64,000 bases of DNA, from sequence record MZ561532. One strand, 5' to 3'. This DNA comes from Shigella phage PSD9. The translations under genes and the position numbers were made by a program. Under the pieces are notes generated by a model, which worked only from the letters and a program-made list of their open reading frames with translations, did not search any database and was not told the origin of the DNA. Positions 61 through 60,262 of this stretch are shown here, piece by piece (the stretch's first letter is position 1; each line of letters starts with the position of its first letter).

Positions 61-675
61 TCAGTAAGAAAGAACGGAAAGATTCCAAATGGTGTAATTA
101 TTCCATTTAGGATTTCTCTCAATAGAGTCTACGCGCAGCGTAGTTCCCGCAGGGAACATCATCTCATCTTCATCATTTATTAATTGTAAGTTTGCTACAC
201 GGGTAGATTCAGGAAATGCGCCAGGGAACTCTTCAGGGGGTGCAGCACATAACATTTTAAAGATTTCTTCCTGATAATTGTACACAAACGGTGCATCATT
301 AATACAAAAGATATTAAATGTGCCGTAGAAGTTATAAGATGCGAAGTTACGAGCTACATTGAAATCTTTTGAGAAGCTCATTACTCGGTCGAATTCAATT
401 ACGGCACCTACACACATTGTGGACTCTAGATACTTCATAGTCTTTTTAGATATGCCGCGATAGAGCTTATCAGGCACTACAGAAGTCAGGTTCTTACGGA
501 TGATTTTGTTCAGAGTTTCCTGGATAGTATCTGGTTTATTTTCCATACACTGCCAGAGCGTGCTCTGTTCTAAATCAGAATACACCTCATCAATTTCTAT
601 CTGAGTATTCTCACGGAAATCATCGCATTTGGCATTGTTGATAAATTCTGCTAATTTATGGCTTGGATATAACAT
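61..675 (-). CDS. ADP-ribosyltransferase, ModA/ModB-like
   Basis: R-S-E ART triad (LYRGI ... MSFSKD ... EDEMMF); lies upstream of soc as T4 modA/modB do. Confidence 0.55.
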   Translation of the reverse strand: MLYPSHKLAEFINNAKCDDFRENTQIEIDEVYSDLEQSTLWQCMENKPDTIQETLNKIIRKNLTSVVPDKLYRGISKKTMKYLESTMCVGAVIEFDRVMSFSKDFNVARNFASYNFYGTFNIFCINDAPFVYNYQEEIFKMLCAAPPEEFPGAFPESTRVANLQLINDEDEMMFPAGTTLRVDSIERNPKWNNYTIWNLSVLSY

Positions 676-729: not shown

Positions 730-1299
730 CTAAAAATCCAACATTTTTAAATGAATTGTTTTGTACTCGATTTCGTACGGGTCCCTTTTGACGGTTTCGA
801 TTTCAACAATCTCAAATCTTGATAGGCTGGAGACCATGAACTCACATTCAGTTTCAACCATATCATAGAGGTCAATACGGGTTTCATCTATTTCAAGCTC
901 ATCCACATTCCCTGCAAGAACAAGGTCGATAGCATGATTGTAGTAGTCGAAAATGAACGGTGCATTCCTGAGACTTAAAATGGTTTTGGTTCCATATTCC
1001 CATGCCCCTGCGAATTGACGAGCCTGAGAGTATTGTGTACTAAAAGAAGTAACTCGACCAGGAGACCATTGACAACCTACTGAAAGGAGCTCTAATTGCT
1101 CAAGTTCTCTGGTGGTAATCCCACGATACAACTCTACTGGAACCGCTGAAGTAACATGCTTGCGAACCAGTTTGTCAAGGTCGTAATGGAAGTTAGGGTC
1201 TTTTTTAGCATCCAGACATTTTTCTAAAAGATTCTGTTCGTGTTTTGAGAATTTGGAATTGATTCGGTCTTGATAAAGACATTTTTGTTCGATGTTCAT
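730..1299 (-). CDS. ADP-ribosyltransferase, ModA/ModB-like
   Basis: R-S-E ART triad (LYRGI ... TSFST ... ELEIDE); tandem paralog of the previous ORF. Confidence 0.55.
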   Translation of the reverse strand: MNIEQKCLYQDRINSKFSKHEQNLLEKCLDAKKDPNFHYDLDKLVRKHVTSAVPVELYRGITTRELEQLELLSVGCQWSPGRVTSFSTQYSQARQFAGAWEYGTKTILSLRNAPFIFDYYNHAIDLVLAGNVDELEIDETRIDLYDMVETECEFMVSSLSRFEIVEIETVKRDPYEIEYKTIHLKMLDF

Positions 1300-12894: not shown

Positions 12895-13788
12895 TTAAAG
12901 GACCACGTCCTCATAACTTGGCATTTCGTGCTCAGAATGGATGTGGGCACCGAAATAAATGAATTCAGCCAGACCAGGATGAAATACTAAACTGGGATTC
13001 TCATGATAAATGATATGAGGTCTTGATTTCAGAATCTGATAATATTCAACCTTACTCGGTTTGAATTTAATAATCTCTACATCAGGACGATAGTCTTCAC
13101 GCTTAAATGAATCATTCGGATCGGTGATATAAAGGCGAGAACCTTCAGCCGCAGCTTGGTCTACAACTCTTTCGAATTGATAACATTTATCAGAGATACG
13201 GAATGGATGGAAAATACCATCAATTTTAATAGGCGCTAGACCTTCAGAGTAACGCTCAATTACTGCGGGATTAATTACCTTTTGGTCTACAAAAATCTTA
13301 TCAGAGGACGCACCTCGTGACACCAGGACGTCTTTCTGACATTGATTCAAGACTGTAGTATAAATCGAACGTTCAACTGAACCCACGTCGGTATCAATAA
13401 ACTCATCGATGTAATAACGAGGAACTTCAGGGTCCATTGTAATGTTAAAGTTGAATTGTACGGTATGAGCACCATCATAACCTGTGATATCGGTTACCAA
13501 TCCTGAGCAGTCATAGTATTCGATTAACGAATCAACAACGAACTCATTTTCAGACCAAAAATGTTTACGAGTTTCATAAGCATTTTCTTTATACCAAAGA
13601 GGTACAAAATTCAGTTCAGGAAATAATTCAATGCATTCTTTGATATCGCTCGAATTTCTAGGATAAGCCAGATAATCACCTGGGCAAGCACGGTTTAAAT
13701 GGAGTTGAAAATTACCGTCCTTAAGGACGGCATATTCACCTGTTTCGTAACTACGCATACTGAAAATAGGAACGATAAACAAACTCAT
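12895..13788 (-). CDS. hypothetical protein at the beta-glucosyltransferase locus (297 aa)
   Basis: occupies the T4 beta-gt position between uvsX and 42 but has no similarity I recognise to T4 beta-gt. Confidence 0.5.
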   Translation of the reverse strand: MSLFIVPIFSMRSYETGEYAVLKDGNFQLHLNRACPGDYLAYPRNSSDIKECIELFPELNFVPLWYKENAYETRKHFWSENEFVVDSLIEYYDCSGLVTDITGYDGAHTVQFNFNITMDPEVPRYYIDEFIDTDVGSVERSIYTTVLNQCQKDVLVSRGASSDKIFVDQKVINPAVIERYSEGLAPIKIDGIFHPFRISDKCYQFERVVDQAAAEGSRLYITDPNDSFKREDYRPDVEIIKFKPSKVEYYQILKSRPHIIYHENPSLVFHPGLAEFIYFGAHIHSEHEMPSYEDVVL

Positions 13789-14483
13789 TTCAGGAATCCT
13801 CGAACGTAGTCAAAATCACGTTCAAATACGTGTGCACTAACCATAGTATGGGAATACGTACCCAGACCAACACCACACTGTTCAGCAATAAAGGCCATCA
13901 GTTTACCCTGCAGATAGAAATCCAGCTGCATAACAATAGCACAGTTCTGTGAACGCATATGGGTATGTGCATAAAGACGTCCATCACGAATATAATATGT
14001 CACTGAATCAGTACATGGATATTCTAAGGATTCGTCAGAATCAAGGAGGGCTTGGTCTTGTTCTTGGAGAATTTGGAACACAACTCGTCTTGAGTTAGGC
14101 TTCTCTTTAAGCTCTTTAAGTAAGGCTGGGAGTTGGGCCACAATTCTAGGTCCATAGAAAGTGTTGAAGTTTGCAGGCAATACGTCACTTTTCGGCTTAT
14201 CAATGAACTTAGCAACATTAGGGTATTCCTTAAATGCTTCGGCGGCGTCAGTACCACCAGAAATCATAAACTTCCAGAAAGATTCGGCATAATCATAGCT
14301 GATACGATTAATACGAGGGTCGGTGAATTTATAGGTGCTTGCATCCAGTACTTCTACCGAAGCAGAACCAATTTCATAACAACGGCCGATACGAGAATCA
14401 ACTGCAAACTGTGGAGCTTCCAGGATTTCTTCGTTCATTTGCTTAAACGCGTTTTCAAAACTAACAGCGGTAATGTGTTTCAT
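13785..14483 (-). CDS. 42: dCMP hydroxymethylase gp42 (ThyA fold)
   Basis: thymidylate-synthase-family C-terminal region (PCTDSVTYY ... H.R. ... MQLDFYL); T4 position. Confidence 0.8.
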   Translation of the reverse strand: MKHITAVSFENAFKQMNEEILEAPQFAVDSRIGRCYEIGSASVEVLDASTYKFTDPRINRISYDYAESFWKFMISGGTDAAEAFKEYPNVAKFIDKPKSDVLPANFNTFYGPRIVAQLPALLKELKEKPNSRRVVFQILQEQDQALLDSDESLEYPCTDSVTYYIRDGRLYAHTHMRSQNCAIVMQLDFYLQGKLMAFIAEQCGVGLGTYSHTMVSAHVFERDFDYVRGFLK

Positions 14484-15016
14484 TTATTCACCTTATTTTC
14501 AATATATTCATTCAGACGTTTTAATTCTACCATATCGACGTTAAGCAAGTTATTATGGCCGTCGTGATTTAAGATTTTAAACACGTTTTCAAAACATGTT
14601 TCGTATTGGCGGATAGTTAGGTTGAACTCATCTTTGGTTAATTTAATAAGGTCATCTTCAAAGTCTTTATCCAGTGGATTACGGGTTAAAATAACCTCAA
14701 TAATATTGAATTCAGATTTAAACCTTTTCCAATCTTCCAGTTCTACATAAGGGTCCATTTCACCGCGAAGGAATCCCGAGTAAACAATATTACTTGGATA
14801 ACCACGGTCAAGGATGTAAACGAAATTAGGGTCTAAAAACTTATACAACGTCTCGACTAAAGCCTTGTCATTATCGGTCCCTAATGAAATGCATTTGCCA
14901 TTAATCTTTTTAGGGAAATCAATAAGACGATATTTCTTATCAGATAAAAGTGATTCAATTAAAGTAGACTTCCCGGAATTATCCGGGCCGTCGATAACAA
15001 TGATTTTTGGTTTCAC
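14480..15016 (-). CDS. P-loop nucleoside/nucleotide-type kinase (178 aa)
   Basis: Walker A IVIDGPDNSGKST at the N-terminus, typical of small NMP/dNK-type kinases. Confidence 0.6.
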   Translation of the reverse strand: MKPKIIVIDGPDNSGKSTLIESLLSDKKYRLIDFPKKINGKCISLGTDNDKALVETLYKFLDPNFVYILDRGYPSNIVYSGFLRGEMDPYVELEDWKRFKSEFNIIEVILTRNPLDKDFEDDLIKLTKDEFNLTIRQYETCFENVFKILNHDGHNNLLNVDMVELKRLNEYIENKVNK

Positions 15017-15387
15017 GGATGATATGCCTTATAGGTTTCAAGAGTTCCTTCACGAACCATTTCTTTAAAGTGGTCAGGACGGATTGCTCGGTCATCGATG
15101 ATAAAAGTATAACTCGGCTTATGTGTAAGCAGATTGTGATATTTCAATCCAATCTTTTCAAGGTTCTTAACTAATGCAGGAACTACTTCAACCAAGATTC
15201 GACCCGGGCCGCATGAAGTCATACCACGGGCAGTGAACAAGGTAATCTCGTACCCTTCATCATAAAGCTTATTAATCATGGACACCATTTCGGTGTCCGG
15301 TTTAAAGTTTTCGTAATCACGGTCATCTTGCCAGTGAGTAATGGTATTATCGATATCAAAACACAGATGCATTAAATTTTCTTCCAT
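15013..15387 (-). CDS. HAD-superfamily phosphatase (124 aa)
   Basis: HAD motif I DIDNTIT, motif II-like TARG, motif IV IIDD. Confidence 0.65.
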   Translation of the reverse strand: MEENLMHLCFDIDNTITHWQDDRDYENFKPDTEMVSMINKLYDEGYEITLFTARGMTSCGPGRILVEVVPALVKNLEKIGLKYHNLLTHKPSYTFIIDDRAIRPDHFKEMVREGTLETYKAYHP

Positions 15388-17045
15388 TGTTTGTGGAGTT
15401 CGGTAGAACCTGTAGGTTTATATTTTACACCAGTTTCCTGGTCAAGCAAAACCCACTTATCAGGACAACGAGTGATAATTTGAGCCGTGATAGGGTCGCG
15501 AACTTCATCAACGAATTCACCTGTGATAAGCTTACGCTTACGAGGATGCCGCTTCAGCAGCACACTCAGTTGATATAGCCCATTGTAATAAGCGCCCAGA
15601 GCTTTCAGAGGGTTATTTTTAAAGTAACCTGCCAATGCCATCCAAATAACGGCAATCCAGAGCTTGTGCTTAAATGTACACATCGGAATATCATCTAAAG
15701 GCATAACCTTTTCAATATCAACGAATACACGAGTTCCGTTACGAGTTAAGCCACCCCATAGAGGGTCAGAGTTAAATTTGTCATAACCATCGATAGAATA
15801 AAGCACCTTAGCTTCATCATAAATCGCAGGGCCTTTAGAACTATTACCAAAATAACCACGTGGGTCGATGATTTTAATATTACCTTCGTCCGACAACATA
15901 ATATTACTGTAGTGCGGGTCGCCATGAATAAGTTGGTACGGTTCTTTATGTTCAGACAGAATTTCTAGTGCATGACGAAGAAGTTTTTCAGGGTCGCCTA
16001 CCTTAAAGTCATTGACATGGGTAATGCCCTGTGGAGCAAAGCCTTCAATCAATCCGGCAATAGAAGCATTACGAATAAGGACCTTGTCCAATACTTCTTT
16101 CTTAACATCAGAATACCATTGCTCATCGGACGGATTATCGATAGTCCCACCGAACGAACGTAATGCACTAATAACCTTATAAACCATTAGGACTTTAGTT
16201 TCTTTAGACATAAACCGGTAGGCATCTGCCATGGTTCGACCAAAGATACGTTCCATTTTAATGAATTCGCCTGGAGCAAAGTCTACAATGCTAGGAACGA
16301 ATTCGGAATCAATAGAATTATACCAATTGATTTCTTTAGATTGGATTTCTTTACCCAATTCGTTAGTTGGTACTTTAATAGCTAGATTCTCGGTGAACTC
16401 TAATTTATTAAATTCACGGTTAATTTCAGAATCTTCATGCGCCTTAGCCAGTTTCAGTTTGTCACCAACATCAACTACAAAGTCTAACTTACGTTCAGTC
16501 AAATGGACCATTGAATCCAGGTTGTCAGCAAGGTCTTCACCATAATTAGAACGGTCGAAACCTGTCCAATTAGCCACCTGATACAAGCCAACTACGCCAC
16601 CACCGGTACCAATTTCACGCAAGTACGGTTCTTCAAATGTAAAACGACAGTCAGTCCCATAGGTATAACAGTAGTCGTTATCCCACTCAACTTTATGACC
16701 TTCAGGAATAATATCACACCAGTTAAACAAGACATTGTGCCCAATGATATCTTCGGCAATGCAATCGATAGCATGAGCCGAACCATTGGCAACATCAACG
16801 TTACGAATAGTGAATTTAGGCTTATCACTATTAATCATGTTAATGGATTTAATATAGCCTTTAACGAGGTCGTTAAATTTGCTGTGAATAACCAGAATAA
16901 TTTCATCTGATTGATTACTATACAAATCATACAAATGTTTTAATACAGTATGTTGTTTGTAGTTAACCAGTACCTTCGGGATTTCGTTGGTAATTGGATA
17001 CAACCGTGAGCCAAGACCCGCGCCTAAAATAACAACCTTTTTCAT
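15372..17045 (-). CDS. bifunctional sugar-1-phosphate nucleotidyltransferase / APH-fold kinase
   Basis: N-term ILGAGLGSRLYPIT (RmlA/GlmU-type NTase signature); C-term LIHGDPHYSNIM ... IIDPRG (choline-kinase/APH catalytic loop); start adjusted to MKKVV. Confidence 0.7.
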   Translation of the reverse strand: MKKVVILGAGLGSRLYPITNEIPKVLVNYKQHTVLKHLYDLYSNQSDEIILVIHSKFNDLVKGYIKSINMINSDKPKFTIRNVDVANGSAHAIDCIAEDIIGHNVLFNWCDIIPEGHKVEWDNDYCYTYGTDCRFTFEEPYLREIGTGGGVVGLYQVANWTGFDRSNYGEDLADNLDSMVHLTERKLDFVVDVGDKLKLAKAHEDSEINREFNKLEFTENLAIKVPTNELGKEIQSKEINWYNSIDSEFVPSIVDFAPGEFIKMERIFGRTMADAYRFMSKETKVLMVYKVISALRSFGGTIDNPSDEQWYSDVKKEVLDKVLIRNASIAGLIEGFAPQGITHVNDFKVGDPEKLLRHALEILSEHKEPYQLIHGDPHYSNIMLSDEGNIKIIDPRGYFGNSSKGPAIYDEAKVLYSIDGYDKFNSDPLWGGLTRNGTRVFVDIEKVMPLDDIPMCTFKHKLWIAVIWMALAGYFKNNPLKALGAYYNGLYQLSVLLKRHPRKRKLITGEFVDEVRDPITAQIITRCPDKWVLLDQETGVKYKPTGSTELHKQWKKI

Positions 17046-17105
17046 TATCTGTTCCTCAAGTGAATGTAGGTACATTATACACTATTTTTAATAAATTGGT
17101 ATTGC

Positions 17106-43410: not shown

Positions 43411-43794
43411 TTATTCTAACGTCAGCAAATACTTAGTCTGGTAAAAGACGCCAGTGATATCGTCCAAAGTCGACTGGATGGCCTTAGGAAGTGTATCATA
43501 GATTTTATCAGATGCTTTAAGAAGCTCGTCAAGGAAATCTACAGGGTCCTTAGGCAAGTCTGAAGCAGACGGTAATGATGCTTTATATTCTTTGCCACTG
43601 AATCCAAGATATTGCTCACTAAATTGGTCCAGCGGTCCTTGAACTTCTACATAATAGAAGTCATACGCTTTGTGTCTTGCATAGCTTTTGGTTTCTAAAT
43701 GGGCTGACTTAAAATAGGCTAAAGAAACCAGTAGCCAACCAATATAAGAATCCACTTCAGACCCTCGACTGGGTACGAAATCATTGAACTTCAT
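43411..43794 (-). CDS. hypothetical protein (127 aa)
   Basis: minus-strand ORF. Confidence 0.4.
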   Translation of the reverse strand: MKFNDFVPSRGSEVDSYIGWLLVSLAYFKSAHLETKSYARHKAYDFYYVEVQGPLDQFSEQYLGFSGKEYKASLPSASDLPKDPVDFLDELLKASDKIYDTLPKAIQSTLDDITGVFYQTKYLLTLE

Positions 43795-44074
43795 CTTCCA
43801 CCTTCATTAGTTTTACATAACGCTCTCCGATGGCCCGACCTTCAATTGAGCACGCTTCTATAGTCCGACAACTTGAAATCTTCCAGGAAGCCGTAACATA
43901 GGCCCAATAGTCTTCGGAGGCCTTTACGCTGGGTCTACTCATTTGCGCATAAACAGGCATCGCACTACTAGCAAATGCATCCATCAATTTATCATTGGCA
44001 CCATTTGCTAGTGAAACTGTAGGGCTTAAACATCCCGCCATAAGGATACAAGCCGCTGTACGGAAAATATCCAT
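43781..44074 (-). CDS. putative secreted/lipoprotein (97 aa)
   Basis: N-terminal signal sequence with LMAGC lipobox-like site. Confidence 0.4.
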   Translation of the reverse strand: MDIFRTAACILMAGCLSPTVSLANGANDKLMDAFASSAMPVYAQMSRPSVKASEDYWAYVTASWKISSCRTIEACSIEGRAIGERYVKLMKVEDEVQ

Positions 44075-44166
44075 ACAAAAGTCCTTTGTTGTTTTATACT
44101 ATTTGCCTTTCGGCCTTAACCGATAGCGATTACCAAAAGCTAAAGCTCTACGGTTAGTATTATTAT

Positions 44167-44445
44167 TTATAGCTTTTTAAGCTTACGACAATAAGAATAG
44201 AACACGTCGTTAAAATTATATTCAACCCAATTCCTCTGTATAGGCGAGGTAATGGAAAGCATATAATGCGCTTTAATTAAATCCATCCCGTTTTTATTAG
44301 GACACTCTTTATTATTAGCATTATACGTCGCTGCTACAACCTCTATCTCTCTTTTGTAAGCCACATCATCCATGATAGGCGAAAGAACAATATAAGAAAT
44401 AGCCACAGCGAACGCTAGAATTAAAATCTTTGAATTTAGGTCCAT
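44167..44445 (-). CDS. signal-anchored periplasmic protein (RI-like by position)
   Basis: N-terminal hydrophobic anchor; sits beside tk where T4 has rI/rI.1; no sequence match verified. Confidence 0.3.
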   Translation of the reverse strand: MDLNSKILILAFAVAISYIVLSPIMDDVAYKREIEVVAATYNANNKECPNKNGMDLIKAHYMLSITSPIQRNWVEYNFNDVFYSYCRKLKKL

Positions 44446-44452
44446 AATACCC

Positions 44453-45025
44453 TCAACTCGTTATTTCTATCCAGTGCTTCCTGCACAATGACACGTAAGA
44501 ATCGTTGCCACCTATAGAAACTTGGGCGCCGTCCTTAATTGCGATACCATCCTGGACCCTAGCAGTCATAGTAGCTTTACGGCCACAATGGCACACACCT
44601 TTGTACTCAACGAGTTTATCTGCCGTAGCGAGTAATTCAGCAGAGCCAGGAAACAGTTTACCCTGAAAATCAGTTCTTAGCCCATAGCACATAACCGGAA
44701 CATTATAATTGTCTACTATCTTCGCCAGTTGTTTTATCTGTGCAGGTTCTAAGAACTGTGCTTCATCCACAAATACACAGTGGATATCTTTTTGAGATTC
44801 AGCCCAACGATAGAACTCGTATAGGTCCATATCCGGAGTCACGGCATTAGCCTCTTGACTAATCCCTATACGAGACGAAATGCTATGGCTTGATTCTCTA
44901 TTGTCTATCGCAGGCTTTAAAAGGAGTACGCCCATACCGCGTTCTTTGTAGTTATGAGCTGCCGTTAGCAATGAAGCGGTTTTCCCGGAATTCATCGCCG
45001 CATAGTGAAAATAAAGTTGAGCCAT
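44453..45025 (-). CDS. tk: thymidine kinase
   Basis: TK-family P-loop (AAMNSGKT), C-terminal Cys zinc site; 190 aa. Confidence 0.85.
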   Translation of the reverse strand: MAQLYFHYAAMNSGKTASLLTAAHNYKERGMGVLLLKPAIDNRESSHSISSRIGISQEANAVTPDMDLYEFYRWAESQKDIHCVFVDEAQFLEPAQIKQLAKIVDNYNVPVMCYGLRTDFQGKLFPGSAELLATADKLVEYKGVCHCGRKATMTARVQDGIAIKDGAQVSIGGNDSYVSLCRKHWIEITS

Positions 45026-45034
45026 ATTACCTTC

Positions 45035-45220
45035 TTAAAGACTATTTACATAAGCAATTAATTCATTTTCTTTCTCATCAAACCGACTGGCGAATTCTTC
45101 CTGGTGTTCGGCATCTATAGGGCCATATTCATCATAAAAAGAATTTGCTTCTGCATGCTCATCTAGAAGTTCATGGATAAGCTCAAACAATTTATCTTTC
45201 TGCTCTTTACTCAGACTCAT
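45035..45220 (-). CDS. hypothetical acidic protein (61 aa)
   Basis: minus-strand ORF. Confidence 0.35.
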   Translation of the reverse strand: MSLSKEQKDKLFELIHELLDEHAEANSFYDEYGPIDAEHQEEFASRFDEKENELIAYVNSL

Positions 45221-45444
45221 TTTGGTTCACCATATCGTACAAATTTAGGATGTTCGCAATAACCAGAATGAAAACCTTCGCCTTTATGGTTAATGCACCC
45301 TTTATTGGAACAGTACCACCAGTAATCAAATTCACATTCCATTTCATCGTTGCATAAAGCTGCTATTACTGGCCATTCGCATTTTTCACATTTAGCCGTT
45401 TTAAGAATTCGGGCTTGGCTCATAACCATTGCACCTTTAAGCAA
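45217..45444 (-). CDS. hypothetical Cys-rich protein (75 aa)
   Basis: CEKCEW ... CNDEMECEF ... CSNKGC ... C.H pattern suggests zinc binding. Confidence 0.4.
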   Translation of the reverse strand: MLKGAMVMSQARILKTAKCEKCEWPVIAALCNDEMECEFDYWWYCSNKGCINHKGEGFHSGYCEHPKFVRYGEPK

Positions 45445-45632
45445 TATTCTTCTACATGCTGTTTACGTTTATTTTTATCTATAAAAGTATATTCAACGTA
45501 TTCACCGATATACCGTTTATCGGTGTTGTGTTGACTTTTTATAGGGCATTTAGTTACTCGGGTTTCGGTCCAACGTCGAATAATTTCCGCTTTGTTTTTA
45601 GGGTCAAACGGATGCGGGTAATGGGCTTTCAT
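45420..45632 (-). CDS. hypothetical protein (70 aa)
   Basis: minus-strand ORF. Confidence 0.35.
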   Translation of the reverse strand: MKAHYPHPFDPKNKAEIIRRWTETRVTKCPIKSQHNTDKRYIGEYVEYTFIDKNKRKQHVEEYCLKVQWL

Positions 45633-46071
45633 AATCTACCACCACTAAATTAATATCAGGAGTAAACAAATTAATCAATTGGTAAACCTTGTCCCAATCA
45701 CCACCAGCAATACCACAACCAATGCGAGGAATATAAATTCTTGGTTTAAACAAAAGACCTTTTGCGGTACGGTTTAATTCTATCATACAGTTTACTAAAG
45801 CACCATAATCAAGATTAGGGCCTGGTTCGTATTGGGTATATAAATTATAGCAAATTTGGCCATTATTACCTGTAGCTTGAGTAAACGTGCCAAGTTTTGC
45901 CAAATTGCCTAAATAAGTAGTTTTATCGATAGCGAGAATAGGCGGATAAGCCTTAGCCAATTGCCCAGCTACACCTGAACCCATTGTGTGGAAACAGTTG
46001 CACCCGTGTGCAACATTATTACCTTGAAGAAACAGGGCGACGATATCGCCCTTAATATAATCAATAATCAT
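45604..46071 (-). CDS. macro-domain-like protein (putative ADP-ribose binding/hydrolase)
   Basis: GDIVALF ... VAHGCNC ... GSGVAG ... IPRIGCGIAGG resembles macro-domain core blocks; tentative. Confidence 0.4.
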   Translation of the reverse strand: MIIDYIKGDIVALFLQGNNVAHGCNCFHTMGSGVAGQLAKAYPPILAIDKTTYLGNLAKLGTFTQATGNNGQICYNLYTQYEPGPNLDYGALVNCMIELNRTAKGLLFKPRIYIPRIGCGIAGGDWDKVYQLINLFTPDINLVVVDYESPLPASV

Positions 46072-46424
46072 TTAGAGTTTAATCCTCGATTGTATGAGTC
46101 AACGAGTCTGTCTACCATAGACGCGCACATTTCTTTGTACTTTTTATCAGATGGAATACATTCAGTAACGTTTAGACGTTGCTCGTATCTTTTAGAAAGA
46201 GTTTTCTCTTTCATTCGGCGATGCTCTACGTCATTCTGCCCATCTTTAAAAGCAGCCGTGATTTTTGAACTGAATTCGATAATGCATTCAGTATTACTCG
46301 GATGACAATAATCTTTTGCTGTACGGGTAGCATACTCGACAATTGAATTATTACTATCATAAACTTGTGACGCTAATACTCCCGGAGCAATCAACATAAG
46401 CGCTATAGTCATCTGCTTAATCAT
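46068..46424 (-). CDS. hypothetical secreted protein (118 aa)
   Basis: cleavable N-terminal signal peptide. Confidence 0.4.
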   Translation of the reverse strand: MIKQMTIALMLIAPGVLASQVYDSNNSIVEYATRTAKDYCHPSNTECIIEFSSKITAAFKDGQNDVEHRRMKEKTLSKRYEQRLNVTECIPSDKKYKEMCASMVDRLVDSYNRGLNSK

Positions 46425-46964
46425 TTAATACACCGCCTCAAACATCTTTTTAGATTTTAGGTAATTGGCCTTTTCTAGAACTTCAGAAGCATATTTACTG
46501 CCTGCTTTGGCGTTCCAGCCCGCATTATAAGAAGCAATCGCTTTTCTCAGGTCACCTTTGTGAACATCAATCCAATAAGACAGTTCAATGTAGGCCCAAG
46601 AGGCACTGTTCTGTCGTTTTTGGACCATACGAATTATTTCTTTGTCAGACATCTTCCAACCTACCTGTTGAACACGACTTCTTAACGTAGGCAAGTAATT
46701 TTGGAACATGCCATAAGCATGGTGCTTATCTTTATTTAAACCCTGATTAATTCCGGCAGATGATTCCTGCCATAGTAATCCGGCCATAATATATCCTAAT
46801 CCTTTTTGATTAGGGTTTTCTTTGAACTTTCCCGACTTTTGGTATTGTTCACCGAAAGCATACGCATAATGTAAATTATCGAGTTGTTCATTACTGAAAG
46901 TAGGCTCTACGCTATGGGCAGACATACTAACTGTCAATAGTAAAGTGGCTAATACTTTTTTCAT
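46425..46964 (-). CDS. soluble lytic transglycosylase-like protein (SLT domain)
   Basis: signal peptide; SLT motifs (QESS ... YGMFQ ... ASYNAGWN). Confidence 0.55.
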   Translation of the reverse strand: MKKVLATLLLTVSMSAHSVEPTFSNEQLDNLHYAYAFGEQYQKSGKFKENPNQKGLGYIMAGLLWQESSAGINQGLNKDKHHAYGMFQNYLPTLRSRVQQVGWKMSDKEIIRMVQKRQNSASWAYIELSYWIDVHKGDLRKAIASYNAGWNAKAGSKYASEVLEKANYLKSKKMFEAVY

Positions 46965-46976
46965 GAGACCTCATTA

Positions 46977-47435
46977 TTAAAGATAGATTACTTTCGTGCT
47001 GGTTTTACCTTCTAAACGTTTAGAGTTAACAAATGCCATACGACATTTAAGGGAATATCCTTTATCAGGATGTTTACGGTCTACAGTCATACCTAGCCAT
47101 AAGGTTTTATCGGTAATTTCGAGACGCAATGGGCGATACACTTTACCAGGGACAATTTCGGATTCTACATCAGGTAGAGGTTCCTGGATTAAAAATTCAT
47201 GAATTTCTTTAACATGGTTATGGAGTTGCTTGAATAAAGCAAAAACGTATTTTTCGTCGATTTCACGTTGGATAGCACGGTCCAACAAGTGATTAGAGTA
47301 CTTAATAAAGAAGGCTGGGACTCCGCTCTTGATGGCGGCTTTTTTGATGGACGTATTCAGTTCACGGAATTCGGTTTCGAACTGACGACGTAATTTATTG
47401 CGGCGGATGAATACTTCTGAATTAATTTCTGACAT
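46977..47435 (-). CDS. regB: endoribonuclease RegB
   Basis: colinear with T4 RegB (EVFIRRNKLRR.FE.EFR ... HLLDRAIQREIDE.YVF ... RLEITD..LWLG). Confidence 0.9.
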   Translation of the reverse strand: MSEINSEVFIRRNKLRRQFETEFRELNTSIKKAAIKSGVPAFFIKYSNHLLDRAIQREIDEKYVFALFKQLHNHVKEIHEFLIQEPLPDVESEIVPGKVYRPLRLEITDKTLWLGMTVDRKHPDKGYSLKCRMAFVNSKRLEGKTSTKVIYL

Positions 47436-47448
47436 TTTGTAATCTCCT

Positions 47449-47494
47449 GTAGTTGATAGGTCTATAGTACCACGTCTACAGGAGATGTAAACTG
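47449..47494 (-). promoter_or_regulatory. early promoter cassette
   Basis: gtagttgataggtctatagtacca ... gatgtaaac directly upstream of regB. Confidence 0.6.
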
Positions 47495-47496
47495 CT

Positions 47497-47706
47497 TTAT
47501 TCTTGGAATGGGGTAAGTTTTCCAGCAGCTGAACAAATTTCTACCAGTACAGGGTAAAACTCTTTCACTTGTTCAAGGCGTTGGGCTGCATACTGTACTT
47601 CACCTTCTTCGAGACAAGCCATTTGGTCGTCAAGCAAGTATTTGTGGTAGCCAGTACAGGCTTCACCGATGATACGCTGGAAATCTTGTAAACTTTCAAT
47701 TTTCAT
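47497..47706 (-). CDS. hypothetical protein (about 69 aa)
   Basis: start adjusted to MKIESL. Confidence 0.35.
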   Translation of the reverse strand: MKIESLQDFQRIIGEACTGYHKYLLDDQMACLEEGEVQYAAQRLEQVKEFYPVLVEICSAAGKLTPFQE

Positions 47707-47984
47707 CAGTATTTTTCCTCGGGTTGGAAAACGGAACGACACGCCCACATGCTTGCTTCTTTCAGACGGTCAATTGCATTACGAATCTGGGTGATGCGTT
47801 CATGAGCCTGGTCTAGTTCTTGTTCAGAAACCTCTTCGGTATCTAAGTTCATATAATGAGTAACATGTTCTTCTTCCAGAGCTTTAAACATTAACCCAAG
47901 ACGAACTTCAGCATCTTTGATAGCGTTTACTTTACCGATTTTATCGTCGGTATGCGGCTTATAACCCTTGATATCTTCAATCAT
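47706..47984 (-). CDS. hypothetical protein (92 aa)
   Basis: minus-strand ORF. Confidence 0.4.
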   Translation of the reverse strand: MIEDIKGYKPHTDDKIGKVNAIKDAEVRLGLMFKALEEEHVTHYMNLDTEEVSEQELDQAHERITQIRNAIDRLKEASMWACRSVFQPEEKY

Positions 47985-48199
47985 TTCACTTCCTCGCCAG
48001 TTGCGATATCATATTCTACCAAACGAAGGCCTTCAGTCCAACCTTGCACGGAGATATAGGTAGTCGGGTAAATCATTTCTTTACCATTCCACCGACCGCC
48101 ATCCCAGACTTCCAGAAAGTCTTGTTCACCTGGTCCATTAAGCCATTCAACAAATCTTTTCAGAGCTTCTTCAGAACCTTCAATTGTCAATTTAGACAT
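47981..48199 (-). CDS. hypothetical protein (72 aa)
   Basis: minus-strand ORF. Confidence 0.4.
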   Translation of the reverse strand: MSKLTIEGSEEALKRFVEWLNGPGEQDFLEVWDGGRWNGKEMIYPTTYISVQGWTEGLRLVEYDIATGEEVK

Positions 48200-48536
48200 A
48201 TTTTTTCCAATCAGAAATCATATGAATCTCTTGGTCATAAGTCAAGAGACTACGAGCAATAATACCCTTACAAGGCCCTGAGATGAACTCGAGAGTGAAG
48301 TAAGGAACCTGTTTCATTAATCGGATACTAGGAGCATGACATCTAAAACGAGAGCCCTTAAAGGGCCCTGTCATGAATACATATTCCAATGGGTAGAAAT
48401 AAGCATATTCGAAATTTGCAGTAAGGTCCTCTCTTCGAACCTTACGTGAGAAATAACAGAACTCAAAAAGTTCTTCATCAGTCATCATTGCATTCCTATC
48501 ACAAAGAACAGAGGCAAAGGCTTGTCGCCTTGGCAC
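48192..48536 (-). CDS. hypothetical protein (114 aa)
   Basis: minus-strand ORF. Confidence 0.4.
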   Translation of the reverse strand: MPRRQAFASVLCDRNAMMTDEELFEFCYFSRKVRREDLTANFEYAYFYPLEYVFMTGPFKGSRFRCHAPSIRLMKQVPYFTLEFISGPCKGIIARSLLTYDQEIHMISDWKKYV

Positions 48537-49012
48537 ATAAATTTATTAATCATTACCTGGTAAGCTTCATAGAACTTATCCATCGCTGGAAGGCGCATTG
48601 GCTCTTCGATAATAATCAATAATCGAGTAACAGATAGTCCACGATACTTATGGAAATTGTCTTCATCAAGGAAACTGCGCACAGTATCATAGACAACAAA
48701 ACCAGGACCTTCGACTTGGAGATGTGGGTGTGCCTTAGAAACCTGTTTTATTACATTACAAATTTCTCGCGAGCGATGCGAAGAACTCGACATAACAATC
48801 ACATCATTACCCTTGGAAACCCAATCAGCGGCGAACTGAGCAAGGGCACTTGTTTTACCTGTTTGGCGTCCGCCATCAAGTCGAAGAGTACCAAACTCTT
48901 GCATTCTTGAAGCAGGTTCATACCAGGTATATTGGTCTGAGTCTAAACGTTCAATGGCGCGTTCAGCGAAGGCGTGCATTAAGGTTAGATAAATGGGAGT
49001 TAAAAATTTCAT
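48485..49012 (-). CDS. P-loop NTPase-like protein (about 175 aa)
   Basis: GGRQTGKTSAL Walker A; start adjusted to MKFLTP. Confidence 0.45.
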   Translation of the reverse strand: MKFLTPIYLTLMHAFAERAIERLDSDQYTWYEPASRMQEFGTLRLDGGRQTGKTSALAQFAADWVSKGNDVIVMSSSSHRSREICNVIKQVSKAHPHLQVEGPGFVVYDTVRSFLDEDNFHKYRGLSVTRLLIIIEEPMRLPAMDKFYEAYQVMINKFMCQGDKPLPLFFVIGMQ

Positions 49013-49161
49013 AGTATTTCCTTTGAGGGCCGTTCCTTGGCACATTAATTCGTCCCTTTCTGCATTTACCCATTACCGCACTTGGGCTCGACCTTATTAC
49101 AGGTTGGCGGGAGTCCCTCACAGAATTGTGAGGTCCAGGTTGCTCCCATTTAAAATGCTAA

Positions 49162-49419
49162 TTAACGTTCTTCGTGTTTAAAACCTTTCTTAGTAAACAG
49201 CTTAACAACATCTGCTACTTTACGAAGTTGATCTGCATCAGCAACCAGTTGCTTAACCACTTTCTCGTCAGTTTCTTTAGAGCTAAAAGCGTGCTCAAGT
49301 TCGTCATCATTAGGGTCGGCCATAGAAACTTCAGTGCCGGAAGGTTTAACGTTTACAATCATATTCCAACGTTTAGAAACTAAAGTGGATTCTGTAATAA
49401 ATTCTTGGTAAGTTTTCAT
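49162..49419 (-). CDS. internal head protein (CTS-bearing)
   Basis: N-terminus MKTYQEFITES = T4 capsid-targeting sequence consensus. Confidence 0.6.
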   Translation of the reverse strand: MKTYQEFITESTLVSKRWNMIVNVKPSGTEVSMADPNDDELEHAFSSKETDEKVVKQLVADADQLRKVADVVKLFTKKGFKHEER

Positions 49420-49427
49420 ATTAAGCC

Positions 49428-49787
49428 TTAAAGATGGTCTAGTGCCGGGTTATGAGGTTTTTCTGCTTTAGTAGTGTTTTTATGCCAATCTGATTTAGAA
49501 ACACGGATGGCATCCGCGCCATAAGAACTCTTAAGGAGACCTTTTTTATTGTACACACTTATTGAAGTAAGAGAATCACCATTCCATGTAGCATGAATGA
49601 AGTTAGATTTAGATTTAAGTTCTTTAGCCAAGCTCTGGTTAGTGGCCATGGAAGCAAAGTCTTTACCTGTAACTTTAAAAACTTCAGATGGGTTCAGCCC
49701 TTCTTTGGCCTTAGCCAATTGTTCAGGAGACATAGCTTCGTTAATGCGCTGAGTAGATTCAGTAATAAATTGTTGGTAAGTTTTCAT
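49428..49787 (-). CDS. internal head protein (CTS-bearing)
   Basis: N-terminus MKTYQQFITEST capsid-targeting sequence. Confidence 0.6.
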   Translation of the reverse strand: MKTYQQFITESTQRINEAMSPEQLAKAKEGLNPSEVFKVTGKDFASMATNQSLAKELKSKSNFIHATWNGDSLTSISVYNKKGLLKSSYGADAIRVSKSDWHKNTTKAEKPHNPALDHL

Positions 49788-59866: not shown

Positions 59867-60108
59867 TCAAAAACGCTACTCGGCTTACGGCAAAGATATT
59901 TCCTCGAATCGATAATTCGGTGCGCCGTTTCTGCTGTGATGTAAGGGGACGTTAACAGATCGTAAAGATTTGTTAATGCCAGTCCTTACTCAGGGAACAT
60001 CAGTCCGACGACTTACCGGTAGCGACCCGGTTTCTTGTTTGTTGCGCCGGTGAATGCTGGTAATCAGTCTTCATACGACGGCTTGACTATATAATAGTCT
60101 TCATTTGG

Positions 60109-60180
60109 TATCCCGCCCTGGGATCGAACCAGGACCGCAAACTTAGAAGGATCGTATGCTATCCATTACACCAGCGGGAC
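60109..60180 (-). tRNA. tRNA-Arg (anticodon UCU)
   Basis: hand-folded cloverleaf: acceptor GTCCCGC/GCGGGAT, D-loop AATGGATA, anticodon loop CTTCTAA, T-arm CCTGG-TTCGATC-CCAGG. Confidence 0.6.
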
Positions 60181-60188
60181 GTAGTTGG

Positions 60189-60262
60189 TGACCCAGACCA
60201 GATTTGAACTGGTAACCTTTCCCTTATGAGGGGACTGCTGCTAACCATTGAGCTACAGGGCC
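60189..60262 (-). tRNA. tRNA with CAU anticodon (Ile2-like or Met)
   Basis: hand-folded: GGCCC acceptor start, D-loop AATGGTTAG, anticodon loop CTCATAA, T-arm ACCAG-TTCAAAT-CTGGT; several stem mismatches. Confidence 0.5.

What the first reader, a model, noticed from the sequence alone, without database searches (positions are those of the whole stretch)
45604..46071. Possible macro domain protein in a genome that also encodes two ADP-ribosyltransferases
The 155-aa protein has blocks resembling the macro-domain core (GDI ... HG.N ... GSGVAG ... IGCGIAGG). Two Mod-like ARTs with R-S-E triads lie at 61-1299. A phage macro domain could reverse or read ADP-ribosylation. The macro assignment is tentative.
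Basis: inference. Interest (0 to 1): 0.45.

Follow-up and report, generated by a model that had tools for sequence, protein, structure and literature searches.

The report
Phage macrodomain tk.4 (AdfM) ortholog
The 155-aa protein really is a macrodomain, but it is the ordinary, already described tk.4 gene of T4-like phages, whose T4 copy (AdfM) protects the phage from the bacterial DarTG2 defence that ADP-ribosylates DNA, and nothing ties it to the phage's own Mod enzymes.

Summary

The window is a Dhakavirus, a T4-like phage (100% protein identity to phage WG01). The gene is the syntenic ortholog of T4 tk.4 (53% identity over all 155 residues; order regB-vs.1-vs-tk.4-tk.3-tk). The A1pp/macro match of tk.4 was reported in 2006. 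In 2025 T4 tk.4 was named adfM: a knockout makes T4 sensitive to DarTG2, whose toxin ADP-ribosylates thymidine in ssDNA.

The most likely function is therefore removal of ADP-ribose from phage DNA. That is counter-defence, not reversal of the phage's own arginine-directed Mod marks.

One detail the T4 preprint passages I read do not mention: the family has an invariant Gln (Q80) where DarG, TARG1 and PhiKZ AdfM have the catalytic Lys. SCO6735, a proven dT-ADPr hydrolase, also has Gln there. Bacterial relatives are stand-alone genes, and darT was not recurrent beside them.

Verdict: already known, low interest.

The parts
45604..46071 (-). tk.4 / adfM ortholog: 155-aa stand-alone macrodomain protein
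45997..46008 (-). Codons H22-G23-C24-N25: the conserved His and Asn of the ADP-ribose pocket. They correspond to SCO6735 H24/N27, and N25 to Taq DarG N22.
   Evidence: H22, G23 and N25 are present in all 120 sequences that have a residue there. Alignment to the 5e3b chain (chain numbering is +20, which I attribute to an N-terminal tag). SCO6735 mutant panel, in which H24Y lost activity but through a disrupted fold (PMC9411070). DarG N22/K80 (PMC13309987).
45964..45981 (-). Codons G31-S32-G33-V34-A35-G36: glycine-rich loop 1. Ala35 is invariant where MacroD-type enzymes have a catalytic Asp.
   Evidence: G33 and A35 are invariant in 122/122 sequences. The MacroD motif is from my own knowledge.
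45832..45837 (-). Codons T79-Q80: Gln at the position of the catalytic Lys of TARG1 (K84) and DarG (K80). SCO6735 has Gln85 at the equivalent position.
   Evidence: The profile alignment puts family 'NlYTQy' against TARG1 'yLiTKk'. Q is present in 121/121 homologs, including T4 Tk.4. The equivalence Q85 = K80 = K84 and the dead Q85A mutant are stated in PMC9411070.
45700..45720 (-). Codons G118-C119-G120-I121-A122-G123-G124: diphosphate-binding loop 2. A122 sits where TARG1 has D125.
   Evidence: with codons read.
46068..46424 (-). vs (valyl-tRNA synthetase modifier), the gene immediately upstream. Its TGA stop overlaps the tk.4 ATG (ATGA).
   Evidence: PHROG 1256 E 3.8e-34; coordinates; synteny with IME08 and T4.
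45420..45632 (-). tk.3 ortholog (DUF7202), downstream. It overlaps the 3' end of tk.4 by 29 nt.
   Evidence: Pfam DUF7202 E 5.6e-37.
61..675 (-). ModA-like R-S-E ADP-ribosyltransferase. It is context for the finding and is not shown to be functionally linked.
   Evidence: PHROG 832 E 7.9e-45; alignment with T4 ModA/ModB; annotated modA in QL01.
730..1299 (-). ModB-like R-S-E ADP-ribosyltransferase. It is context for the finding and is not shown to be functionally linked.
   Evidence: PHROG 832 E 1.4e-37.

Best explanation
The gene is the Dhakavirus ortholog of T4 tk.4 (adfM), a stand-alone macrodomain ADP-ribosyl glycohydrolase that serves as a counter-defence factor. When a host carrying the DarTG2 toxin-antitoxin system is infected, DarT2 puts ADP-ribose on thymidines of single-stranded phage DNA and blocks replication. 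The phage protein most likely binds the ADP-ribose in its glycine-rich pocket (loops 31-36 and 118-124, with H22 and N25) and hydrolyses the ribose-thymine bond, restoring normal DNA. Cytosine hypermodification in T-even-type phages does not shield thymidine, so a dedicated eraser is useful. Catalysis probably follows the SCO6735 route, in which a Gln (here Q80) positions the substrate and an activated water, rather than the Lys-dependent route of DarG and TARG1. What is shown: macrodomain fold and class, orthology to T4 Tk.4, and conservation of the pocket residues. What is inferred: the anti-DarTG2 role (transferred from T4 genetics), the DNA substrate, and the Gln-based chemistry (transferred from SCO6735).
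For: Orthology: 53% identity over the full 155 residues to T4 Tk.4. The gene order regB-vs.1-vs-tk.4-tk.3-...-tk is the same as in IME08 and T4.

Function of the T4 ortholog: tk.4 was the single significant hit in a transposon screen on a DarTG2 host, and a clean knockout is sensitised. The authors named it adfM (10.1101/2025.11.20.689424).

Active site: H22, N25 and Q80 are conserved in every homolog with a residue at those positions. Q80 aligns with TARG1 K84. SCO6735 has Gln85 there, cleaves dT-ADPr on ssDNA and protects from DarT, and its Q85A mutant is dead (PMC9411070).

A second, distantly related phage macrodomain, PhiKZ AdfM, removes DarT2-made ADP-ribose from a TNTC oligonucleotide in vitro and is needed to resist DarTG2 (PMC13309987).
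Against: No experiment exists on this Dhakavirus protein. The T4 evidence is genetic only and comes from a preprint; the passages I read report no enzymatic assay of T4 Tk.4. The protein lacks the catalytic Lys of DarG, scores far below the NCBIfam DarG cut-off (20.4 against 250 bits) and has no DarT-binding domain. In T4 the loop-2 sequence (GAGIGKGNW) differs from that of this protein and the family consensus (GCGIAGGDW), so specificity could differ. Bacterial relatives are mostly stand-alone genes. A few sit next to ARH-type glycohydrolase and NAD-salvage genes rather than darT, which also fits a broader ADP-ribose-processing role.
Confidence: 0.72

Rival explanations
1. The macrodomain erases or reads the phage's own ADP-ribosylation, meaning Alt/ModA/ModB marks on host proteins or ModB-type RNAylation. 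It would tune or time the host takeover.
For: The same genome encodes ModA/ModB-like R-S-E transferases. Macrodomains are generic ADP-ribose erasers and readers. SCO6735 and TARG1 also act on protein Glu/Asp-ADPr (PMC9411070).
Against: T4 Alt and ModA targets are arginines (PMC8120803), a linkage this macro class is not known to cleave. The genes are 44 kb apart in different gene clusters. Tk.4-like proteins occur in 2732 phage records, including many genera and families outside the Mod-carrying group, which has 1063 records whose ten listed genus labels are all enterobacterial or T4-type. In T4 the only phenotype reported for tk.4 in the passages I read is DarTG2 sensitivity.
Confidence: 0.07
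2. It is a small-molecule enzyme, as the legacy annotations say: an ADP-ribose-1''-phosphate phosphatase (Poa1p/A1pp) or an O-acetyl-ADP-ribose deacetylase. It could also degrade an ADP-ribose-derived immune signal.
Confidence: 0.08
3. It counters DarTG2 without catalysis, by binding and blocking DarT2 or by shielding ADP-ribosylated DNA.
For: Catalytically dead SCO6735 Q85A, DarG K80A and TARG1 K84A all inhibit DarT in vitro, and SCO6735 does so most strongly (PMC9411070).
Against: The ADP-ribose pocket residues H22, N25, Q80 and both glycine loops are invariant or nearly so across 120 or more homologs, which argues for selection on the active site. The protein lacks the DarT-binding C-terminal domain of DarG. 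An active-site Asn mutant of PhiKZ AdfM loses activity.
Confidence: 0.1

Closest known systems
T4 Tk.4 = AdfM (anti-DarT factor Macrodomain), bioRxiv 10.1101/2025.11.20.689424
   Same: Same length (155 aa) and 53% identity end to end. Same genomic slot between vs and tk.3. Same H/N/TQ motifs.
   Different: Loop 2 is GCGIAGGDW here, which is the family consensus, against GAGIGKGNW in T4. This protein has not itself been tested.
Streptomyces coelicolor SCO6735 (PDB 5E3B), a stand-alone dT-ADPr DNA hydrolase
   Same: Stand-alone macrodomain of the ALC1/TARG1-like class. It has Gln instead of the catalytic Lys, with conserved His and Asn. The family profile matches it at E 9.8e-17.
   Different: It is a bacterial chromosomal gene under a DNA-damage promoter, not a phage gene. 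It has a longer mobile loop. The single-sequence phmmer search aligned only two short segments.
Bacteroides thetaiotaomicron BT1257 (PDB 2AFC/2FG1)
   Different: No function has been assigned to it, and it is a bacterial protein.
DarG antitoxin macrodomain (Mtb 5M3I, Taq 5M31/5M3E)
   Different: DarG uses Lys80, has a C-terminal DarT-binding domain and is encoded next to darT. None of these holds here.
PhiKZ gp104 AdfM (Cell Rep 2026, PMC13309987)
   Same: A phage stand-alone macrodomain that counters DarTG2, with biochemical proof of ADP-ribose removal from ssDNA.
   Different: Only about 17-20% identical (hhalign probability 96%). It has a Lys-type 'FPTK' active site (N23/K78) and is imported into the phage nucleus. 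It is a separate lineage.
Human TARG1/OARD1
   Different: The TARG1 Lys84/Asp125 dyad is replaced here by Gln80/Ala122.

Membership tests
Macro domain (Pfam PF01661) | Profile match above the curated gathering score over most of the domain | tested here: met
   32.8 bits against a cut-off of 22, E 7.4e-8, profile positions 2-117 of 118.
Macro domain (Pfam PF01661) | Three-layer alpha/beta/alpha macro fold | tested here: met
Macro domain (Pfam PF01661) | ADP-ribose binding | not testable with these tools
   Only the conserved pocket motifs (N25, G31-G36, G118-G124) can be shown.
ALC1/TARG1-like macrodomain class (TARG1, DarG, SCO6735, Poa1p, BT1257) | Closest structural and sequence neighbours belong to this class rather than to the MacroD, PARG or viral nsp3 classes | tested here: met
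T4 Tk.4 / AdfM orthologous group | Full-length similarity to T4 Tk.4 | tested here: met
   53% identity, 155 of 155 residues, E 1e-62.
T4 Tk.4 / AdfM orthologous group | Conserved position between vs and tk.3 in the tk-regB cluster | tested here: met
T4 Tk.4 / AdfM orthologous group | Protects the phage from DarTG2 | not testable with these tools
   Shown only for T4, by knockout.
SCO6735-type (Gln) DNA dT-ADPr hydrolases | Gln at the position of the DarG/TARG1 catalytic Lys, plus the His and Asn of the pocket | tested here: met
   Q80 aligns with TARG1 K84. The equivalence to SCO6735 Q85 is taken from PMC9411070, not from a direct alignment of that segment. H22 and N25 align with SCO6735 H24 and N27.
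SCO6735-type (Gln) DNA dT-ADPr hydrolases | Hydrolysis of thymidine-linked ADP-ribose on ssDNA | not testable with these tools
   This needs an enzyme assay.
DarG antitoxin (NCBIfam NF048014 equivalog) | Score above the equivalog cut-off | tested here: not met
   20.4 bits against 250.
DarG antitoxin (NCBIfam NF048014 equivalog) | C-terminal DarT-binding domain (protein of about 330-340 aa) | tested here: not met
   The protein is 155 aa and matches only positions 3-142 of the 329-position PADLOC model.
DarG antitoxin (NCBIfam NF048014 equivalog) | Catalytic Lys (Taq K80) | tested here: not met
   Gln in 121 of 121 family members.
DarG antitoxin (NCBIfam NF048014 equivalog) | Encoded next to darT | tested here: not met
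   The neighbours are vs and tk.3. Among the families shown for 123 neighbours of 75 bacterial homologs, which are those hit by at least two members, there is no DarT.
MacroD-type O-acetyl-ADP-ribose deacetylase (YmdB-like; the JGI label on homologs) | Catalytic Asp after the first glycine loop, and closest similarity to MacroD structures | tested here: not met
Poa1p / A1pp ADP-ribose-1''-phosphate phosphatase (the 'phosphatase' label) | Phosphatase activity on Appr1p | not testable with these tools

The most novel reading that the evidence does not exclude
Besides cleaning DarT2 damage from DNA, the Gln-type Tk.4 macrodomain might also act on products of the phage's own transferases, for example by trimming Glu/Asp-linked side products or ModB-attached RNA-ADP-ribose conjugates. 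That would give T4-like phages a writer-eraser pair. Nothing here excludes this, but nothing supports it beyond co-residence in one genome.
Probability: 0.07. Interest if true: 0.6.

Novelty: already known. Interest (0 to 1): 0.15.

Why it matters
It matters little as a discovery. The gene has been annotated as an A1pp/macro-domain protein in T4-like phages since at least 2006, and its T4 ortholog was assigned an anti-DarTG2 role in 2025.

Two small points may be useful to specialists:

- The T4-type AdfM family has an invariant Gln in place of the DarG/TARG1/PhiKZ-AdfM catalytic Lys. It therefore probably works like SCO6735. The two phage proteins that share the name AdfM belong to different lineages with different chemistry.
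- The bacterial relatives are widespread stand-alone genes rather than DarT-linked antitoxins. The 'orphan antitoxin' origin proposed for phage NADARs may therefore not apply here.

The 'phosphatase' label propagated in RefSeq and PHROGs is probably misleading.

Tried and rejected
- The promoter/terminator scan of 43500-49500 gave promoter-like sites at chance level (15 found against 15.6 expected). I make no claim about transcription units beyond the overlapping and abutting coding regions.
- The first T4 record hit by tblastn (MZ375356) was an engineered mutant with a disrupted tk.4. I used NC_000866 instead.
- LeRoux et al. 2022 (PMC9250638) is not held in the library. I therefore could not check which E. 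coli DarTG2 hosts or which phages were tested, nor where adfA lies.
- Pfam finds nothing for the two Mod-like ARTs. PHROGs and alignment with T4 ModA/ModB were needed.
- A direct residue-level alignment of the Q80 segment with SCO6735 and DarG was not obtained, because the PDB tool prints only the five best alignments. The equivalence rests on the TARG1 alignment plus the published statement in PMC9411070.
- The alignment to PhiKZ gp104 around the TK/TQ motif is off by one or more residues and is unreliable there.
- I considered and rejected three classifications: DarG membership (four defining features not met), MacroD-type deacetylase, and a functional operon with modA/modB.

Full report
**1. 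What is in the sequence**

The minus strand of 45604-46071 carries an ATG-initiated ORF of 155 codons. I checked the codons of H22, N25, T79-Q80 and G118-G124 by hand against the DNA.

The ORF sits in a tight run of minus-strand genes:
- regB at 46977-47435 (Pfam REGB_T4, 6e-69).
- vs.1 at 46425-46964 (PHROG 600; a weak SLT match).
- vs at 46068-46424 (PHROG 1256). Its TGA stop overlaps the ATG of the macro gene.
- The macro gene itself.
- tk.3 at 45420-45632 (DUF7202), overlapping the macro gene by 29 nt.
- A zinc-binding ORF at 45217-45444, a 61-aa ORF, and thymidine kinase at 44453-45025.

The promoter-pattern scan is at chance level and adds nothing.

**2. It is a macrodomain**

The sequence evidence is strong:
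- Pfam Macro scores 32.8 bits (cut-off 22, E 7.4e-8) over nearly the whole model.
- PHROG 335 matches at E 1.4e-66.
- phmmer against PDB sequences finds BT1257 (7.5e-9), SCO6735 (3.9e-7), Poa1p, Mtb DarG (5M3I, deposited under the name 'RNase III inhibitor', 6.6e-5) and TARG1.

**3. Which gene it is**

The window is a Dhakavirus, a JS98/IME08-type T4-like phage of E. coli. The protein is 100% identical to one encoded by phage WG01, and the surrounding 4 kb is 95-99% identical to QL01, vB_EcoM-E33, AnYang and IME08. In IME08 the gene is annotated tk.4, with the product name 'phosphatase', between vs and tk.3.

The two proteins are both 155 aa long and are 53% identical from end to end (E 1e-62). 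The A1pp (macro) match of tk.4 orthologs was already tabulated in 2006 (PMC1524935). Other GenBank records label the ortholog 'macro domain protein' or 'Poa1p-like family protein'.

**4. What the ortholog does**

A 2025 preprint (10.1101/2025.11.20.689424) screened a T4 transposon library on a DarTG2-expressing host. It found tk.4 as the single significant hit and showed that a clean knockout sensitises T4 to DarTG2. The authors noted the similarity to the Mtb DarG macrodomain and renamed the gene adfM, for anti-DarT factor Macrodomain. They proposed that it removes ADP-ribose from DNA. The passages I read report no enzyme assay.

DarT2 ADP-ribosylates thymidine in ssDNA and thereby blocks phage replication. 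T4 AdfN, a NADAR protein, handles only the guanosine adducts made by DarT1 (PMC11825919).

An independent 2026 paper gave the name AdfM to PhiKZ gp104. It showed in vitro removal of DarT2-made ADP-ribose from a TNTC oligonucleotide, loss of activity in an active-site Asn mutant, and loss of DarTG2 resistance in mutants (PMC13309987).

By orthology, the window's gene is most likely an anti-DarTG2 DNA ADP-ribosyl glycohydrolase.

**5. Active site: a Gln-type enzyme**

In 122 aligned sequences (the window protein, T4 Tk.4 and 120 database homologs), H22, G23 and N25 are present in all 120 that have a residue there. G33, A35 and D49 are invariant in all 122. N76, Y78 and Q80 are present in all 121 that have a residue there.

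The profile-to-PDB alignment places the family motif N-L-Y-T-Q against TARG1 L-I-T-K. Q80 therefore occupies the place of the catalytic Lys84 of TARG1, and A122 occupies the place of TARG1 Asp125. BT1257 also has Gln there.

PMC9411070 states that SCO6735 Gln85 is at the position equivalent to DarG Lys80 and TARG1 Lys84. It also reports that Q85A and Q85E abolish activity, that SCO6735 cleaves dT-ADPr on ssDNA with a higher turnover than DarG or TARG1, and that it protects against DarT. The authors propose catalysis by an activated water. H22 and N25 correspond to SCO6735 H24 and N27.

PhiKZ AdfM, in contrast, is only about 17-20% identical to this family and has the DarG-like 'FPTK' Lys (K78). 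The two phage proteins named AdfM therefore come from different lineages of the same class and probably use different chemistry. The T4 preprint passages I read do not mention this point.

**6. Relation to DarG and origin**

The protein is not a DarG by membership criteria:
- It scores 20.4 bits against the 250-bit equivalog cut-off.
- It has no C-terminal DarT-binding domain, and matches only the first 142 positions of the PADLOC DarG model.
- It has no catalytic Lys.
- It has no darT neighbour.

A scan of one genome per bacterial species found at least 498 loci encoding relatives that carry the same HGCNC and N-[AGC]-Y-T-Q motifs. The best 80 of these are 32-43% identical to the query. They come from Rhodobacteraceae, Undibacterium, Desulfobacterales, Planctomycetota, Verrucomicrobiota, Bacteroidota and others, and most encode proteins of about 150 aa.

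I scanned 123 immediate neighbours of 75 such genes. No DarT model appeared among the families shown, all of which were hit by two or more members. The recurrent neighbours were Exo_endo_phos (6), ARH-type ADP-ribosylglycohydrolase (5), NAPRTase (3) and NAD synthase (2). The ORF calling was crude and only the top 25 families are shown, so a single DarT neighbour cannot be excluded. Even so, the family is overwhelmingly stand-alone, like SCO6735 and BT1257.

**7. The Mod transferases**

ORFs 61-675 and 730-1299 are ModA/ModB homologs: PHROG 832 at 8e-45 and 1e-37, conserved R73, S100 and E169-x-E171 when aligned with T4 ModA/ModB, and the annotations modA and modB in QL01.

A functional link to the macrodomain is not supported, for five reasons:
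- T4 Alt and ModA modify arginines, for example RNAP alpha R265 and MazF R84 (PMC8120803).
- The TARG1/DarG/SCO6735 class is known for Glu/Asp esters and thymidine adducts.
- The genes lie 44 kb apart.
- Tk.4-like proteins are found in 2732 phage records, including Pseudomonas (183), Vibrio (134), Acinetobacter (93) and Aeromonas (86) phages and Felix-O1-like, rV5-like and Vi1-like phages. Mod-like proteins are found in 1063 records, and the ten genus labels listed for them are all enterobacterial or T4-type.
- In T4 the only phenotype reported for tk.4 in the passages I read is DarTG2 sensitivity.

**8. Verdict**

The likely substrate, however, is host-inflicted DNA ADP-ribosylation and not the phage's own protein marks.

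The gene is a routine, conserved and already named component of T4-like genomes, so it is already known and of low interest. What remains uncertain is that the function is transferred from T4 genetics and from SCO6735 and PhiKZ biochemistry. No experiment has been done on this protein, or on the enzymology of any Gln-type phage member.

Noticed in passing
window 12895-17075 (minus strand): Between uvsX and the DNA polymerase region, where T4 has beta-gt and gene 42, the window has four ORFs. They are a thymidylate-synthase-like ORF (13785-14483, probably the dCMP hydroxymethylase), a P-loop kinase-like ORF (14480-15016), a small ORF annotated 'phosphoheptose isomerase' in QL01 (15013-15387), and a 567-aa NTP_transferase plus APH-kinase fusion (15372-17075). 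From memory this resembles the arabinosyl-hydroxymethylcytosine pathway reported for RB69/JS98-type phages. I did not check that in the literature. Cytosine modification would not protect thymidine from DarT2.
   Followed up: partly
window 60106-60262 (minus strand): Two adjacent tRNA genes, tRNA-Arg(TCT) and tRNA-Met(CAT). This is a much smaller tRNA cluster than the one in T4.
   Followed up: no
window, somewhere between about 1300 and 44000: The coordinate offset to the close relative QL01 changes from 11262 at modA to 8452 at tk. The window therefore carries about 2.8 kb that QL01 lacks. This could be a homing-endonuclease or other accessory insertion; related genomes show such gaps.
   Followed up: no
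L007-L086 (bacterial loci): Stand-alone Tk.4/SCO6735-type (Gln) macrodomain genes are widespread in bacterial chromosomes, with at least 498 loci. A handful sit next to ARH-type ADP-ribosylglycohydrolase, NAPRTase or NAD synthase genes. Three neighbours match AbiLi, AriA or mad3 defence models.
   Followed up: partly
PDB entry 5M3I as listed: The Mtb DarG macrodomain is deposited under the molecule name 'RNase III inhibitor', and the Taq one as 'Appr-1-p processing domain protein'. A reader who sees only molecule names would miss the DarG hit.
   Followed up: yes
window 45988-46305 (plus strand): A 105-aa GTG-initiated ORF runs antisense to the tk.4/vs junction. It has no support and is most likely spurious.
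   Followed up: no
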